Assembly: GCA_000004985.1 (NCBI GenBank)
Contig: GG739206.1
Length of the DNA stretch: 3,809 nt
Reading direction: 5' to 3' (one strand)
Source: Naegleria gruberi
Lineage: Eukaryota
The notes under the pieces were generated by a model, which saw only the letters and a program-made list of their open reading frames with translations, did not search any database and was not told the origin of the DNA. How positions within the stretch are numbered: position 1 is the first letter of the stretch; every line of letters starts with the position of its first letter. Position numbers and translations under genes: made by a program. Below are positions 1 to 3,809 of this stretch, in pieces.

Positions 1-1259
1 AGATCATGATCGATACATTCTCCATGGGATGAACATGTACTGGAATCATTAGCTGAAATGTTGAAACAAATTGGAATTTCACATTGCATTCCAGTATATC
101 CTTCATGACATTGACATTGATCTGGTTTTTGACAAATACCATGTGAAAAACAAACAGGTTGGTTGGTGGCATTTATACCAAAACATATTGGAATGGAGCA
201 ATTGAGTCCTGTATAATTTGAATGACACATACATTCATTATATTGAATACATTGTCCATTACCATTACACGACTGAGTTTCATTTGATGGAATTCCAAAA
301 CAAAGTGGAATTTCACATTGTAATCCAATATGATTTTCATGACATTTACAATTATTTGGAGAATAACATTCACCAAATCCATTACACACTGATTGATTGG
401 AAGCATCAATGTTGTAACAAATTGCCATGGAACAATTTTCAGCTGTATATCCTTCAAAACACGAACAGTTATTTGGAGCCAAACATTGTCCATGTGAAGA
501 ACAAACCACTGACTGACTGGAATCTAATCCATAACATATTGGGAGTGAACAATTCAATGCGGCGGTGTATCCATCATGACAAGAACAGTTATTGAACTCA
601 ATGCATTCTCCATGAGATGAACATGTACTGGAATCATTAGCTGGAATATTGAAACAAATTGGAATTTCACATTGCATTCCAGTATATCCTTCATGACATT
701 GACATTGATCTGGTGCTTGACAAACGCCATGTGAAAAACAAACATGACTTTGATCAGTGGCATTAATTCCAAAACATATTGGAATGGAGCAATTGAGTCC
801 TGTAAAATCTAAATGACACACACATTCATTATATTGAATACATTGTCCATTACCATTACACGACTGAGTTTCATTTGCTGGAATTCCAAAACAAAGTGGA
901 ATTTCACATTGTAATCCCACATGATTTTCATGACATTTACAATTATTTGGAAAAGTACATTCACCAAATCCACTACATACTGAACTATTGGAAGCATCAA
1001 TATTGTAACAAATTGGAATGGAGCAATTATCAGATGTAAATCCTTCATGACATGAACAATTATTTGGTGATAGGCAATCACCATGTGAAGAACAAACTAA
1101 AACGTCGGAACTGTTGAGAGCATAGCAAACTGGACTGGAGCAGTCAATATCCACATAACTAGGCATGCAACTGCAATTGTTATGATCAATACAAGAACCA
1201 TGGCTTGAGCATACCAAGCTATAATTTGCTAATATTTCAAAGCAAATTGGCACTTGGCA
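1..1259 (-). repeat. Two complete 588-bp higher-order repeat copies (1259->672 and 671->84), plus the start of the next copy at 83->1. Each unit is 117 or 120 bp.
   Basis: Unit tops on the minus strand are 1259 (A-like, divergent), 1142 (B-like, divergent), 1025 (C), 908 (D), 791 (E), 671 (A), 551 (B), 434 (C), 317 (D), 200 (E) and 83 (A). There is an exact 65-nt match between 61..125 and 649..713, which is 588 bp apart. The protein-level unit order A-B-C-D-E is the same as in the array above the gap. Confidence 0.85.
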
Positions 1260-1580
1260 TTCTAGTCCTGTATATCCAGTGTCACATTGACAAGTATCCC
1301 AATTCACACATTTACCATGTGAAGAACATATTGAACTTGAATTAGTTCCATTAATACCATAGCAAATAGGAATAGAACATGTCAAACCAGTAAATCCCAA
1401 TTGACATTGGCATTCATCAACGGATTGGCAGGAACCGTGAGAAGAACATACATTGGAATCATTAGCTGGAATGTTGTAACAGAGAGGAGTTTCACATTGT
1501 GATCCAATGTGATTCTCTGAACAAGAACATTGATTTGGAGATGTGCATTCACCGAAAGAATTACAAGCTGAACGGTTGTT
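1..1580 (-). CDS. Continuation of the same tandem EGF-like-domain protein (the same gene, or at least the same exon family). Partial: it enters from the N gap and continues past position 1.
   Basis: I translated the minus strand by hand from 1580 down to 1 in the frame whose codons end at coordinates congruent to 2 mod 3 (1580 itself is the first base of the first codon, 1580-1578). There are 526 consecutive sense codons and no stop, reading NNRSACNSFGECTSPNQCSCSENHIGSQ|CETPLCYNIPANDSNVCSSHGSCQSVDECQCQLGFTGLT|CSIPICYGINGTNSSSICSSHGKCVNWDTCQCDTGYTGLE|CQVPICFEILANYSLVCSSHGSCIDHNNCSCMPSYVDID|CSSPVCYALNSSDVLVCSSHGDCLSPNNCSCHEGFTSDN|CSIPICYNIDASNSSVCSGFGECTFPNNCKCHENHVGLQ|CEIPLCFGIPANETQSCNGNGQCIQYNECVCHLDFTGLN|CSIPICFGINATDQSHVCFSHGVCQAPDQCQCHEGYTGMQ|CEIPICFNIPANDSSTCSSHGECIEFNNCSCHDGYTAALN|CSLPICYGLDSSQSVVCSSHGQCLAPNNCSCFEGYTAEN|CSMAICYNIDASNQSVCNGFGECYSPNNCKCHENHIGLQ|CEIPLCFGIPSNETQSCNGNGQCIQYNECMCHSNYTGLN|CSIPICFGINATNQPVCFSHGICQKPDQCQCHEGYTGMQ|CEIPICFNISANDSSTCSSHGECIDHDL. 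The unit types are the same as those above the gap. The track does not list this frame because it has no stop inside the window. The mod-1 frame that the track carries through the gap (1382..1580 of ORF 1382..3655, 'TTVQLVILSVNAHLQ...') is the wrong frame here. Confidence 0.9.
84..200 (-). other. Representative single EGF-like domain (E-type unit, 39 aa): CSIPICFGINATNQPVCFSHGICQKPDQCQCHEGYTGMQ.
   Basis: This unit has the canonical EGF cysteine framework. Its first Cys is the terminal Cys of the preceding domain and 'SIPI' is the inter-domain linker. It then runs Cys-x10-Cys-x5-Cys-x5-Cys-x-Cys, followed by an 8-residue loop containing G-Y-x-G before the next Cys. N-A-T and N-Q-P lie in the first loop. 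Confidence 0.8.
1260..1580 (-). repeat. A more divergent partial higher-order repeat copy next to the gap: a C-like tail, a D-like unit and an E-like unit.
   Basis: The units CETPLCYNIPANDSNV...QLGFTGLT (1496->1380) and CSIPICYGINGTNSSS...DTGYTGLE (1379->1260), plus the partial ...NSFGECTSPNQCSCSENHIGSQ (1580->1497), keep the 6-Cys scaffold and the unit order. Their loop sequences differ much more from the canonical D and E units than the other copies differ from each other. Confidence 0.7.
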
Positions 1581-2554
1581 NNNNNNNNNNNNNNNNNNNN
1601 NNNNNNNNNNNNNNNNNNNNNNNNNNNNNNNNNNNNNNNNNNNNNNNNNNNNNNNNNNNNNNNNNNNNNNNNNNNNNNNNNNNNNNNNNNNNNNNNNNNN
1701 NNNNNNNNNNNNNNNNNNNNNNNNNNNNNNNNNNNNNNNNNNNNNNNNNNNNNNNNNNNNNNNNNNNNNNNNNNNNNNNNNNNNNNNNNNNNNNNNNNNN
1801 NNNNNNNNNNNNNNNNNNNNNNNNNNNNNNNNNNNNNNNNNNNNNNNNNNNNNNNNNNNNNNNNNNNNNNNNNNNNNNNNNNNNNNNNNNNNNNNNNNNN
1901 NNNNNNNNNNNNNNNNNNNNNNNNNNNNNNNNNNNNNNNNNNNNNNNNNNNNNNNNNNNNNNNNNNNNNNNNNNNNNNNNNNNNNNNNNNNNNNNNNNNN
2001 NNNNNNNNNNNNNNNNNNNNNNNNNNNNNNNNNNNNNNNNNNNNNNNNNNNNNNNNNNNNNNNNNNNNNNNNNNNNNNNNNNNNNNNNNNNNNNNNNNNN
2101 NNNNNNNNNNNNNNNNNNNNNNNNNNNNNNNNNNNNNNNNNNNNNNNNNNNNNNNNNNNNNNNNNNNNNNNNNNNNNNNNNNNNNNNNNNNNNNNNNNNN
2201 NNNNNNNNNNNNNNNNNNNNNNNNNNNNNNNNNNNNNNNNNNNNNNNNNNNNNNNNNNNNNNNNNNNNNNNNNNNNNNNNNNNNNNNNNNNNNNNNNNNN
2301 NNNNNNNNNNNNNNNNNNNNNNNNNNNNNNNNNNNNNNNNNNNNNNNNNNNNNNNNNNNNNNNNNNNNNNNNNNNNNNNNNNNNNNNNNNNNNNNNNNNN
2401 NNNNNNNNNNNNNNNNNNNNNNNNNNNNNNNNNNNNNNNNNNNNNNNNNNNNNNNNNNNNNNNNNNNNNNNNNNNNNNNNNNNNNNNNNNNNNNNNNNNN
2501 NNNNNNNNNNNNNNNNNNNNNNNNNNNNNNNNNNNNNNNNNNNNNNNNNNNNNN
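1581..2554. other. Assembly gap: a run of 974 N inside the EGF-repeat coding array.
   Basis: Uninterrupted n characters. Both flanks are minus-strand EGF-repeat coding sequence. The coding phase differs across the gap: codon ends are congruent to 1 mod 3 above and to 2 mod 3 below. The stated gap length therefore cannot be the true length if this is one exon. Confidence 0.95.
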
Positions 2555-3809
2555 AATAGCTGGAATATTGAAACAAATTGGAATTTCACATTGCATTCCA
2601 GTATATCCTTCATGACATTGGCATTGATCTGGTTTTTGACAAATACCATGTGAAAAACAAACATGACTTTGATTAGTAGCATTAATTCCAAAACATATTG
2701 GAATTGAACAGTCTATTCCTGTATAATCTGAGTGGCACACACACTCGTTATATTGAATACATTGTCCGTTACCATTGCAAGCTTGAGTTTCATTTGATGG
2801 CACGCCAAAACAAATTGGAATTTCACATTGTAATCCAATATGATTTTCATGACATTTACAATTATTTGGAGAATAACATTCACCAAATCCACTACATACT
2901 GAACTATTGGAAGCATCTATGTTGTAACAAATTGGAATGGAACAATTATCGAATGTAAAACCATCAAAACATGTACAGTTATTTGGAGCCAAACATTGAC
3001 CATGTGAAGAACAAACCATTGATTGACTAGAATCTAATCCATAACATATTGGAAGGGAGCAATTCAATGCAGCAGTGTATCCATCATGACATGTGCAAAG
3101 ATTATGGTCGATACATTCTCCATGGAATGAACATGTGCTGGAATTGGTTGCTGGAATGTTGAAACAAATTGGAATTTCACATTGCATTCCAGTATATCCT
3201 TCATGACATTGACATTGATCTGGTGCTTGGCAAACGCCATGCGAAGAACAAACAGTTGGGTTGGTGGCATTACTTCCAAAACATATTGGAATTGAACAGT
3301 CTATTCCTGTATAATCTGAATTACACACACATTCATTATATTGAATACATTGTCCATTACCATTACACGACTGAGTTTCATTTGATGGAACTCCAAAACA
3401 AATTGGAATTTCACATTGTAATCCAATATGATTTTCATGACATTTACAATTATTTGGAGAATAACATTCACCAAATCCATTACACACTGATTGATTGGAA
3501 GCATCAATATTGTAACAAATTGGAATTGAACAATTATCGAATGTAAAACCATCAAAACATGAACAATTATTTGGAGCCAAACATTGTCCATGTGAAGAAC
3601 AAACAATTAGCTGACTAGAATCTAATCCATAACATATTGGAAGGGAGCAATTCAATGCAGCAGTGTATCCATCATTACATATACAAAGATCATGATCAAC
3701 GCAGTTACCATGTCCATAACAAGAATGTGAAAAATTGGCAGGAACATTGAAACAAATTGGAATTTCACAATTGACACCTGTATAACCATTCTGACAGGTA
3801 CAGGTATTA
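2555..3809 (-). CDS. Internal fragment of a large extracellular-type protein built from tandem EGF-like domains (tenascin/teneurin-like 6-Cys EGF array). It is partial at both ends: it continues upstream beyond 3809 and downstream into the N gap.
   Basis: I translated the minus strand by hand; codons end at coordinates congruent to 1 mod 3. Position 3809 is the third base of a split codon, so full codons run 3808 down to 2555. Reading from 3808 downward gives NTCTCQNGYTGVN|CEIPICFNVPANFSHSCYGHGNCVDHDLCICNDGYTAALN|CSLPICYGLDSSQLIVCSSHGQCLAPNNCSCFDGFTFDN|CSIPICYNIDASNQSVCNGFGECYSPNNCKCHENHIGLQ|CEIPICFGVPSNETQSCNGNGQCIQYNECVCNSDYTGID|CSIPICFGSNATNPTVCSSHGVCQAPDQCQCHEGYTGMQ|CEIPICFNIPATNSSTC..., ending at the gap with ...CEIPICFNIPAI. 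There is no stop anywhere. The track's ORF 1382..3655 starts only at an internal TTG (3653-3655) shown as M; the frame is actually open up to 3809, with 3656-3808 encoding ...GHGNCVDHDLCICNDGYTAALN. Cys spacing is invariant, with 6 Cys per 39-40 aa unit. Confidence 0.9.
2591..3769 (-). repeat. Two complete copies of a 5-unit higher-order coding tandem repeat (A-B-C-D-E EGF-like units): 3769->3182 is 588 bp and 3181->2591 is 591 bp. Partial copies flank them at 3770..3809 and 2555..2590.
   Basis: First-Cys codons of the units sit at minus-strand tops 3769, 3649, 3532, 3415, 3298 for copy 1 and 3181, 3061, 2944, 2827, 2710, 2590 for copy 2. The 53-mer ggaatttcacattgcattccagtatatccttcatgacattgacattgatctgg is exact at 3171..3223 and also at 73..125 and 661..713; at 2580..2632 it has one mismatch. 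The 3-bp length difference comes from an extra residue in the first Cys-Cys loop of the second E unit (NATNQSHVC versus NATNPTVC). Confidence 0.85.

What the first reader, a model, noticed from the sequence alone, without database searches (positions are those of the whole stretch)
1..3809. Five-unit higher-order repeat (A-B-C-D-E) of EGF-like domains with a 588/591-bp period, apparently homogenised
The array is a strict cycle of five distinguishable domain types, not a simple repeat of one domain. Type A is CEIPICFN.PA...DGYTAALN (40 aa). Type B is CSLPICYGLDSSQ...F[DE]G[FY]T... (39 aa). Type C is CSIPICYNIDASN..CSGFGEC...CKCHENHIGLQ. Type D is CEIP[IL]CFG[VI]P[SA]NETQ.CNGNGQCIQYNEC.CH..[YF]TG[IL][DN]. 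Type E is CSIPICFG.NAT...C.SHG.CQ.PDQCQCHEGYTGMQ. The cycle is seen at least 4.5 times, at minus-strand tops 3769, 3181, 1259, 671 and 83. Whole 588-bp copies are more similar to each other than the five unit types are to one another. They share exact 53-65-nt stretches. Substitutions concentrate in the inter-cysteine loops, while Cys, the G-Y-x-G motif and the linker Pro are fixed. This is the signature of concerted evolution (unequal crossover or gene conversion) acting on a 5-domain module, with purifying selection on the scaffold.
Basis: seen in the sequence. Interest (0 to 1): 0.6.

Follow-up and report, generated by a model that had tools for sequence, protein, structure and literature searches.

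The report
Five-domain EGF super-repeat in Naegleria gene
The window is part of a Naegleria gruberi gene for a large EGF-repeat protein in which blocks of five EGF domains were duplicated in tandem and later patched against each other by recombination, which is real but an ordinary way for repeat proteins to grow.

Summary
The minus strand is one open reading frame, cut by a 974-N assembly gap. It encodes 22 complete and 4 partial EGF units of 39-40 residues. Seventeen complete units fall into five types, A to E, in fixed order with a 588/591-nt period.

- **Similarity:** same-type units are 72-97% identical in DNA; different types are 46-67%.
- **Tree support:** bootstrap is 96-100% for types B-E and 56% for A.
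- **Corrections:** the cycle at 1259 is not a homogenised copy. Positions 1580-1026 hold an old, in-phase, synonymously saturated cycle. G-Y-x-G is not common to all types.
- **Selection:** copies are under purifying selection (dN/dS about 0.2-0.4). Amino-acid changes avoid the Cys/Pro/Gly scaffold.
- **Recombination:** informative sites form blocks supporting incompatible groupings (p=2e-5). This indicates short-tract gene conversion, unless the assembly is chimeric.
- **Identity:** the closest protein is the N. gruberi model NAEGRDRAFT_62182 (XP_002682216.1), 82% identical overall and 100% over copy 2.
- **Fold:** the predicted fold is a regular EGF array (pLDDT 93).

Multi-domain block duplication and homogenisation of EGF arrays are known, so this is a new member of a known kind. 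Interest is low to moderate.

The parts
3770..3808 (-). Last 13 residues (NTCTCQNGYTGVN) of a non-repeat EGF unit lying upstream of the super-repeat. It matches the second EGF unit of N. gruberi XP_002682216.1.
   Evidence: It is 54-56% identical in DNA to the ends of the type E units, which are 100% identical to each other. It matches unit 1 of P0068 at 13 of 13 residues.
3182..3769 (-). Super-repeat copy 1 (588 nt): A 3769-3650, B 3649-3533, C 3532-3416, D 3415-3299, E 3298-3182.
2591..3181 (-). Super-repeat copy 2 (591 nt): A 3181-3062, B 3061-2945, C 2944-2828, D 2827-2711, E 2710-2591. This E has 40 residues.
   Evidence: All five of its units are identical in protein to units 7-11 of P0068. 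It was the query for the structure model.
2555..2590 (-). First 12 residues (CEIPICFNIPAI) of a third type A unit, cut by the gap.
   Evidence: It matches the start of unit 12 of P0068 at 12 of 12 residues.
1581..2554 (.). Run of 974 N, an assembly gap or masked stretch inside the array. Its size is an estimate.
   Evidence: The reading frames differ on its two sides. Repeat offsets across it are 155-158 nt away from a multiple of 588.
1026..1580 (-). Old, diverged cycle in the same phase: C' (partial) 1580-1497, D' 1496-1380, E' 1379-1260, A' 1259-1143, B' 1142-1026.
   Evidence: These units are 43-69% identical in DNA to every other unit. Best protein matches are C' to C 0.65, E' to E 0.62, A' to A 0.50 and B' to B 0.68; D' is ambiguous. 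Synonymous sites are saturated, with pS 0.63-0.87. B' groups with type B at 86% bootstrap.
672..1025 (-). Canonical C (1025-909), D (908-792) and E (791-672), following the diverged A'B' in phase.
   Evidence: The C unit equals unit 14 of P0068 at 39 of 39 residues.
84..671 (-). Complete super-repeat copy (588 nt): A 671-552, B 551-435, C 434-318, D 317-201, E 200-84.
3..83 (-). First 27 residues of a further type A unit. The reading frame runs off the window.
   Evidence: It matches the last unit of P0068 at 27 of 27 residues.
3159..3211 (-). A 53-nt stretch spanning the E-to-A junction, which is the super-repeat boundary. The same stretch recurs exactly at 2568-2620, 649-701 and 61-113.
   Evidence: Exact repeats. 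It lies in the longest invariant codon run among copies: 17 codons, permutation p=0.003.

Best explanation
The window is an internal piece of a Naegleria gruberi gene for a very large EGF-repeat protein. It is the locus of NAEGRDRAFT_62182, its other haplotype, or a very recent paralogue. The readable part has no introns.

Each 39-40-residue unit is a non-calcium-binding EGF domain of the tenascin/teneurin type. It has six Cys, a four-residue x-x-P-x linker, and usually an N-glycosylation sequon in the long first loop.

The array grew by tandem duplication of a block of five already distinct domains. A block is 588 nt, or 196 codons, so every gain or loss stays in frame. Misaligned pairing between 588-nt copies allows unequal exchange by whole blocks. 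Short-tract gene conversion then copies tens of nucleotides between same-type units, which produces the mosaic. Selection keeps the Cys, Pro and Gly scaffold.

Homogenisation is uneven. It is strongest at the E-to-A junction and the end of C, weak in the core of A, and absent from one old cycle.

Shown here: the periodicity, the five types, purifying selection, the mosaic, the EGF fold and the identity with the N. gruberi model.

Inferred: the protein product is a long, disulfide-bonded, glycosylated extracellular rod or stalk; and the exchange mechanism itself.
For: Periodicity and types are shown.

EGF identity:
- Pfam EGF_TEN scores 166 and 145 bits (cut-off 65), EGF_Teneurin 160 and 138 (cut-off 24.3), and EGF_2 159 and 130 (cut-off 22.1).
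- The AlphaFold2 model of one copy has pLDDT 93.3 and pTM 0.66, with five regular units.
- Foldseek matches the Jagged, Delta-like and integrin beta EGF arrays.

Selection: dN/dS is 0.17-0.37, and scaffold columns vary far less than loop columns.

Mosaic: p=5e-4; p=2e-5 and p=0.002-0.013. There is also an invariant 17-codon run at the E-to-A junction (p=0.003).

The old in-phase cycle is documented.

Identity:
- P0068 is 82% identical overall.
- It is XP_002682216.1, a predicted protein of N. gruberi.
- It is colinear with window units u00-u11, and copy 2 is identical.

Relatives with complete gene models (P0001, P0003, P0004) end in a hydrophobic segment and a short tail, which fits single-pass membrane proteins (read directly from the sequences).
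Against: - No DNA from a second species or strain was available. Ongoing homogenisation, as opposed to past exchange, is therefore not shown.
- The window is a two-contig scaffold with a gap inside the array, so some of the mosaic could be chimeric assembly.
- The ends of the gene are outside the window.
- The N. gruberi gene model is unreliable in its 3' half. It contains an odd unit, a truncated unit and a probable frameshift stop. It shows no signal peptide or membrane segment, so surface location rests on more distant relatives.
- The higher divergence of type A is not significant when only codons with unchanged amino acids are counted (9/25 against 29/130, p=0.2).
Confidence: 0.8

Rival explanations
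1. Block duplication only. The five-unit block was duplicated a few times and the copies have since diverged independently, with no gene conversion or unequal exchange afterwards.
For: The main pattern, copies more alike than types, needs nothing more than this. One cycle and the core of A are old, so homogenisation is clearly not pervasive.
Against: Under a single history, one grouping of the four copies should dominate. Instead all three groupings are supported (8, 5 and 8 sites) in spatial blocks (p=2e-5). The proportions of site patterns also differ between units (p=5e-4). For example, D of copies 1 and 2 differ at 12 sites while D of copies 3 and 4 differ at 5, yet C of copies 1 and 4 differ at 4 and C of copies 3 and 4 at 14.
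Confidence: 0.08
2. Assembly artefact. The mosaic, and part of the apparent homogeneity, arise because reads from different copies or from the two haplotypes were merged in a small unplaced scaffold.
For: A 974-N gap lies inside the array and the frames differ on its two sides. The window differs from the N. gruberi model in copy 1 (10 of 196 residues) and in arrangement after the third A, but is identical in copy 2. Naegleria is described as a heterozygous diploid (PMC9928731).
Against: The five-type periodicity is also present in the independently modelled protein P0068, at 0.79 against 0.46 at other lags, so the super-repeat is not an artefact. Copies differ by about 12% overall, and the exact stretches are at most 105 nt. 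From general knowledge of assembly, that is short compared with Sanger or long reads, so chimeric joins are not expected.
Confidence: 0.1
3. Functional five-domain module. The five positions have different roles, for example matching a periodic partner or setting a fixed geometry, and selection keeps the order A to E. This would resemble the seven-module super-repeat of nebulin.
For: Type-specific residues persist in an old in-phase cycle that is saturated at synonymous sites. B', C' and E' are 62-68% identical in protein to their types, against about 31-50% to the other types. Type C always replaces the usual G-[YF]-x-G with ENH[IV]G.
Against: Common descent of an old block copy explains the in-phase similarity equally well. 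D' cannot be assigned to D. Among 116 relatives with at least 10 units, no protein except P0068 has a strong five-unit period. Weak periods of 2, 3, 5, 7 and 10 occur instead, which points to historical accident rather than a required module size.
Confidence: 0.12

Closest known systems
Naegleria gruberi predicted protein NAEGRDRAFT_62182 (XP_002682216.1, EFC49472.1, UniRef100_D2V061)
   Same: It has the same five unit types in the same order. Its units 1-12 are colinear with window units u00-u11. Copy 2 is 100% identical in protein and copy 1 is 186 of 196 identical.
   Different: It lacks the diverged cycle seen at 1580-1026. Its 3' half is arranged differently, with duplicated D-E pairs, an odd A unit, a truncated C and a probable frameshift stop. 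It is an uncharacterised model with no paper found under its accessions. The window is therefore another haplotype, strain, assembly version or recent paralogue, not the same sequence.
EGF arrays of vertebrate tenascins, with homogenisation of EGF repeats within tenascin-X (Hughes 1999, as summarised in PMC2267704)
   Same: They share the tenascin/teneurin-type EGF unit without the calcium-binding motif, with short linkers between units. The repeats are more alike within a gene than expected, and this was attributed to homogenisation.
   Different: Tenascin repeats are about 31 residues and are homogenised as single units. Here the units are 39-40 residues with a long glycosylated first loop, and the repeating block is five domains. 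The rest of the protein is unrelated: the N-terminal 822 residues of P0068 match no Pfam family.
Multi-domain super-repeats, such as the nebulin seven-module repeat (Bjorklund et al. 2006, PMC1553488)
   Same: Domain arrays expand by duplicating several domains at a time. This is detected as an autocorrelation peak at a lag greater than one domain.
   Different: That study, which surveyed mainly animals, plants, yeasts and prokaryotes, found that EGF domains mostly duplicated one at a time and linked this to exon shuffling. Here an apparently intron-free protist gene duplicates five EGF domains at once.
[quoted passage not shown] 2007, cited in PMC2267704)
   Same: A giant extracellular protein contains EGF-bearing modules that are repeated and homogenised within one gene.
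   Different: From memory, the dumpy modules are EGF-DPY-EGF units and PIGSFEAST repeats spread over many exons. I did not read this paper, so the comparison is a lead and not a test.
Higher-order repeats of satellite DNA, such as alpha satellite
   Same: Monomers of distinct types occur in fixed order, whole blocks are much more alike than neighbouring monomers, and a diverged copy lies beside homogenised ones. This comparison draws on general knowledge.
   Different: This array is protein-coding, in frame and under purifying selection.

Membership tests
EGF-like domain, tenascin/teneurin type (Pfam EGF_2 PF07974, EGF_Teneurin PF23106, EGF_TEN PF25024) | Score above the curated Pfam cut-off | tested here: met
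   EGF_TEN scores 165.6 and 145.4 bits against a cut-off of 65. EGF_Teneurin scores 159.7 and 137.5 against 24.3. EGF_2 scores 159.1 and 129.8 against 22.1.
EGF-like domain, tenascin/teneurin type (Pfam EGF_2 PF07974, EGF_Teneurin PF23106, EGF_TEN PF25024) | Six conserved cysteines per unit, including the C-x-C pair | tested here: met
   All 22 complete units have six Cys at fixed positions. These columns are invariant, one nearly so (90% or more), in the 29-row alignment with relatives.
EGF-like domain, tenascin/teneurin type (Pfam EGF_2 PF07974, EGF_Teneurin PF23106, EGF_TEN PF25024) | EGF fold: small beta-hairpin domains arranged in a tandem array | tested here: met
   The AlphaFold2 model has pLDDT 93.3 and five repeated strand patterns. 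The best solved matches are the Jagged-1, DLL1, DLL4 and integrin beta EGF arrays, with E from 7e-7.
EGF-like domain, tenascin/teneurin type (Pfam EGF_2 PF07974, EGF_Teneurin PF23106, EGF_TEN PF25024) | Disulfide pairing 1-3, 2-4, 5-6 | not testable with these tools
Experimental mapping would be needed.
Calcium-binding EGF (cbEGF) | D/N-x-D/N-E/Q motif before the first Cys of the domain | tested here: not met
   The residues before the canonical first Cys are [ES]-[IL]-P-[IL] in every canonical unit. No acidic motif is present.
Teneurin or tenascin proteins (whole-protein membership) | Family-specific partner domains: NHL/YD shell and toxin-like domain for teneurin; heptad region, FN3 and fibrinogen globe for tenascin | tested here: not met
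   The window holds only EGF units. The 822 residues upstream of the array in P0068 match no Pfam family at E<=0.1. Some other Naegleria relatives do carry NHL repeats, but this gene's counterpart does not.
Multi-domain super-repeat (higher-order repeat) made by block duplication | Similarity peak at a lag of n>1 units that exceeds the one-unit lag | tested here: met
   In DNA, identity is 0.75 at lag 588 against 0.45 at lag 117. In protein, identity is 87% at lag 5 against 41-50% at other lags.
Multi-domain super-repeat (higher-order repeat) made by block duplication | Units cluster by position within the block, not by neighbourhood | tested here: met
   Bootstrap support is B 96, C 99, D 100, E 99 and A 56.
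Concerted evolution of repeats | Repeats within one genome are more alike than orthologous repeats between species | not tested
   No orthologous DNA was found in the genome, metagenome or viral collections. No DNA is on record for P0068. The next closest proteins are only 40-43% identical.
Concerted evolution of repeats | Mosaic or incongruent relationships along the repeat, i.e. gene-conversion tracts | tested here: met
   Chi-square 27.2, p=5e-4. Block-wise incompatible partitions, p=2e-5, and long concordant runs, p=0.002-0.013.
Concerted evolution of repeats | Copy-number or arrangement differences between alleles or strains in whole-block steps | tested here: inconclusive
   The window and P0068 differ in arrangement after the third A. 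However, the P0068 gene model is unreliable there and the window has a gap.

The most novel reading that the evidence does not exclude
The array may be an actively unstable locus. Unequal exchange in 588-nt steps, together with short conversion tracts, would make the two haplotypes or different strains of N. gruberi carry different numbers and mosaics of five-domain blocks. The amoeba population would then have length and loop variants of a large, probably surface-exposed glycoprotein. The five positions might in addition be functionally distinct.

The differences between the window and the reference model fit this reading. Copy 2 is identical, copy 1 differs at 10 residues of which 5 carry states seen in other same-type copies, and the 3' arrangement differs. 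These differences could equally come from assembly and gene-model errors.
Probability: 0.2. Interest if true: 0.45.

Novelty: new member of a known kind. Interest (0 to 1): 0.27.

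Why it matters
This is a clean protist example of an EGF array that expands five domains at a time. The survey by Bjorklund et al. 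of mainly animal, plant, yeast and prokaryote proteomes found EGF domains mostly duplicating singly (PMC1553488).

It shows that the public N. gruberi model for this gene is probably truncated and mis-assembled within the array. That matters to anyone using Naegleria surface-protein catalogues.

It offers a small, testable system for intragenic gene conversion in a heterozygous diploid amoeba. It does not reveal a new mechanism or a new protein kind.

Tried and rejected
- **Tandem Repeats Finder** found nothing. Its longest period is 500, and neighbouring 117-nt units are only about 45-55% identical.
I computed exact repeats and autocorrelation in a script instead.
- **Scans for related loci** in genome, metagenome and viral contigs found no relative, so the window's flanks could not be read.
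- **The word-indexed protein search** returned nothing above 48% identity and missed the 82% match. Only the exhaustive search found it.
- **DNA for P0068** is not on record, so synonymous comparison between the two versions was impossible.
- **Rfam** found no family at gathering thresholds. Plus-strand ORFs are short mirror artefacts of the repeat.
- **Pfam on the N-terminal 822 residues of P0068** gave nothing.
- **Literature search by accession** gave nothing.
- **Idea that type A is older than the other units:** Nei-Gojobori pS is 0.54 for A against 0.15-0.29 for the others. On codons with unchanged amino acids the excess is not significant (p=0.2), so I treat it only as a suggestion.
- **Idea that positive selection drives variation in A:** dN/dS for A is 0.19, no higher than for the other types. 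Rejected.
- **Idea that this is a teneurin or tenascin homologue as a whole protein:** rejected, because only the EGF subtype matches.
- **A viral or bacterial origin** is not supported. All named close relatives are Naegleria or Willaertia, and the best metagenomic relative lies on a eukaryotic contig beside VPS11, ubiquitin and RhoGEF genes.

Full report
**What is in the window**

The window has 3809 bases with 35% G+C. Positions 1581-2554 are a run of 974 N.

On the minus strand, one frame is open for 418 codons (3808-2555). Another frame is open for 526 codons (1580-3). The two frames differ, so the length of the N run is an estimate or the run hides something that shifts the frame. Plus-strand ORFs are short and come from the repeat itself. 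Rfam finds no family at gathering thresholds.

**Checking the observation**

Splitting the translation at every C-x-x-[PA]-x-C gives 26 units, 22 complete and 4 partial. Each has 39 or 40 residues and six cysteines. Type A units start at 3769, 3181, 2590 (cut by the gap), 671 and 83 (cut by the window end). The spacings are therefore 588, 591 and 588 nt. The 591 comes from a 3-nt insertion in the first loop of some type E units.

The periodicity is far above chance:
- In the upstream segment, identity at lag 588 is 0.75. It is 0.45 at lag 117, and the background is 0.27 with SD 0.037.
- In the downstream segment, the peak is split between 588 (0.50) and 591 (0.47). It is also diluted by diverged units.
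- Tandem Repeats Finder reports nothing because its period limit is 500.

The types are distinct:
- Same-type units are 72-97% identical in DNA (mean 89%). Different types are 46-67% identical (mean 56%).
- Whole copies are 87-88% identical.
- In a neighbour-joining tree with 500 codon bootstraps, the types group at B 96, C 99, D 100, E 99 and A 56.

**Corrections to the observation**

2. The cycle listed at 1259 is not a homogenised copy. Units at 1496, 1379, 1259 and 1142 are only 43-69% identical to anything else. They are saturated at synonymous sites against their presumed types, with pS 0.63-0.87.
3. These diverged units are still in phase. The partial unit at 1580 is C-like (0.65 protein identity). 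The unit at 1379 is closest to E (0.62), 1259 to A (0.50, weak) and 1142 to B (0.68, with 86% bootstrap). Only 1496 cannot be assigned to D. This is therefore an old copy of the same five-unit block. It runs without a break into canonical C-D-E at 1025.
4. The 13 residues before the first A (3808-3770) are not the end of a type E. The homogenised block therefore starts at 3769.
5. G-Y-x-G is not common to all types, and one linker Pro is Ala in the unit at 434.

**Selection**

Between same-type copies, pooled dN/dS is 0.17-0.37.

Eight columns are shared by all five type consensuses: six Cys, the linker Pro and one Gly. They vary in amino acid in 1 of 40 type-columns. Loop columns vary in 46 of 155 (Fisher p=1e-4). 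Synonymous variation is similar in both sets, at 12/40 and 34/155, which is not significant.

Every unit except type B carries an N-x-S/T sequon at positions 10-13, in the long first loop.

**Duplication alone, or exchange as well?**

Greater similarity between copies than between types needs only block duplication. Other evidence, however, shows that copies have exchanged sequence:
- For copies 1, 2 and 4, the proportions of the three site patterns differ between units (chi-square 27.2, 8 d.f., permutation p=5e-4).
- For the four copies of C-D-E, 21 informative sites support all three possible groupings (8, 5 and 8 sites). They lie in five spatial blocks with only four switches (permutation p=2e-5).
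- The longest concordant runs between copy pairs exceed expectation (p=0.002-0.013).
- At the protein level, the first loop of E groups copies 2 and 3, while the next loop groups copies 2 and 4 and copies 1 and 3.

Homogeneity is uneven along the block:
- The longest invariant run is 17 codons across the E-to-A junction, which is the block boundary (p=0.003).
- The core of type A differs by 35-41% between copies.
- The higher Nei-Gojobori synonymous divergence of A is not significant on codons with unchanged amino acids (p=0.2).
- dN/dS in A is not raised, so I do not read this as positive selection.

Short-tract gene conversion on top of block duplication is the best reading. Chimeric assembly is the main caveat, given the gap inside the array.

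**What the units are**

Pfam places both segments well above the cut-offs of EGF_TEN, EGF_Teneurin and EGF_2.

The linker between domains is x-x-P-x. There is no calcium-binding motif.

I built an AlphaFold2 model of copy 2 from a 29-row alignment of five-unit windows taken from the window and its relatives. It has pLDDT 93.3 and pTM 0.66, with five regular units. Its best solved matches are the EGF arrays of Jagged-1, DLL1, DLL4 and integrin beta. By sequence alone, only a mastigoneme protein and WIF-1 are found in the PDB.

**Where it comes from**

The word-indexed search gave at most 48% identity. Its named hits were from Naegleria gruberi, N. lovaniensis, N. fowleri and Willaertia. The best metagenomic relative lies on a eukaryotic contig. 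Scans of genome, metagenome and viral contigs found no related locus.

The exhaustive search found P0068, which has 1693 residues and is 82% identical. It is XP_002682216.1 / EFC49472.1, predicted protein NAEGRDRAFT_62182 of N. gruberi, on a 941,567-bp scaffold.

P0068 has this layout:
- 822 N-terminal residues with no Pfam match.
- Two non-repeat EGF units.
- The same A-E block repeated at least four times.

Its units 1-12 are colinear with window units u00-u11. The tail of the second non-repeat unit matches 13 of 13 residues. Copy 1 matches 186 of 196, and copy 2 matches completely. The start of the third A also matches up to the window's gap.

After that, the two sequences differ:
- P0068 lacks the diverged cycle.
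- It has duplicated D-E pairs, an odd A unit and a truncated C.
- It ends with ECIDHDLLHMS. One extra T in the CTTTGC of a canonical A unit would produce that ending. This is my inference from the window's own A-unit DNA.

The window is therefore not the sequence behind that model. It is another version of the same locus: the other haplotype, another strain or assembly, or a very recent paralogue. Naegleria is described as a heterozygous diploid (PMC9928731).

Of the 10 residue differences in copy 1, five have both states present in other same-type copies. Three adjacent ones in D equal the state of the window unit at 908. That is compatible with templated exchange but does not prove it.

**How unusual it is**

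I examined 116 relatives with at least 10 recognisable units. Only P0068 shows a strong five-unit period (0.79 against 0.46). Weak periods of 2, 3, 5, 7 and 10 occur in others (and for the first set).

N. gruberi and related metagenomic eukaryotes encode EGF-array proteins of up to about 7000 residues.

Expansion of domain arrays by several domains at a time is well documented. Nebulin's seven-module unit is the classic case. In the surveyed proteomes (mainly animals, plants, yeasts and prokaryotes), EGF domains mostly duplicated singly, and this was linked to exon shuffling (PMC1553488). Homogenisation of EGF repeats within tenascin-X and within Drosophila dumpy has also been reported (PMC2267704). 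No paper mentions this gene by accession.

**Verdict**

The five-domain super-repeat is real and strongly supported, and it lies in an uncharacterised N. gruberi gene.

The mechanism is tandem duplication of a 588-nt, in-frame block of five distinct EGF domains. Later short-tract exchange between copies and purifying selection on the disulfide scaffold shaped the copies further.

The protein role is inferred from the fold, the sequons and the membrane-anchored architecture of relatives. It is probably a long glycosylated extracellular rod.

This is a new member of a known kind, and interest is low to moderate. The most useful practical point is that the reference gene model is probably truncated and mis-assembled within the array.

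Noticed in passing
window 1581-2554: A run of 974 N lies inside the repeat array. The reading frames differ on its two sides, and repeat offsets across it are 155-158 nt away from a multiple of 588. Its length is therefore an estimate. If the phase is kept, the true gap should be about 234, 822 or 1410 nt.
   Followed up: partly
window, unit positions 10-13 of every unit (e.g. 3742-3734, 3382-3374, 3271-3263): Every unit except type B has an N-x-S/T sequon in the long first loop. Type B instead has N-C-S/T at positions 28 and 39. The relatives show the same habit, which suggests a heavily N-glycosylated array.
   Followed up: partly
window 3159-3211, 2568-2620, 649-701, 61-113 (minus strand): The E-to-A junction, which is the boundary of the five-unit block, is the most uniform part. 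A 53-nt stretch is identical in four copies, and 17 consecutive codons are invariant (p=0.003). It could be a hotspot of exchange or a recently converted tract.
   Followed up: partly
window 3745-3680, 3157-3092, 647-582 (core of type A units): The core of type A differs by 35-41% between copies, far more than the rest of the block (2-20%). dN/dS is not raised (0.19), and the synonymous excess is not significant on strictly synonymous codons.
   Followed up: yes
P0068 (XP_002682216.1), residues 1491-1693: The N. gruberi reference model looks damaged within the array. It has an A unit reading ECIDFMIFHC, a C unit cut to 15 residues and fused to D, two identical D-E pairs, and an end (ECIDHDLLHMS) that one extra T in a canonical A unit would produce. 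The window ends at the same ECIDHD.
   Followed up: partly
window 417-434 (minus strand): In this one unit the otherwise invariant linker Pro is Ala (CSMAIC instead of CSIPIC).
   Followed up: no
P0071, P0076 (N. gruberi) and P0069-P0078 (JGI and Logan metagenomes): There are giant proteins of about 2700-7100 residues, 40-43% identical to the query, with up to 18 separately matched stretches. The same EGF unit type is hugely expanded in Naegleria and in related uncultured eukaryotes. Some relatives combine it with NHL, RCC1, Kelch, kinase, GPS or RGS domains.
   Followed up: partly
search tools: The word-indexed homology search missed an 82%-identical N. gruberi protein that the exhaustive phmmer search ranked first. 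For highly repetitive queries, the indexed search should not be taken as evidence that no close relative exists.
   Followed up: yes
P0015, P0096, P0074, P0137, P0155, P0084: Other members of the family show weaker multi-unit periods of 2, 3, 5 and 10 units. Block duplication of varying size therefore recurs in this family.
   Followed up: partly
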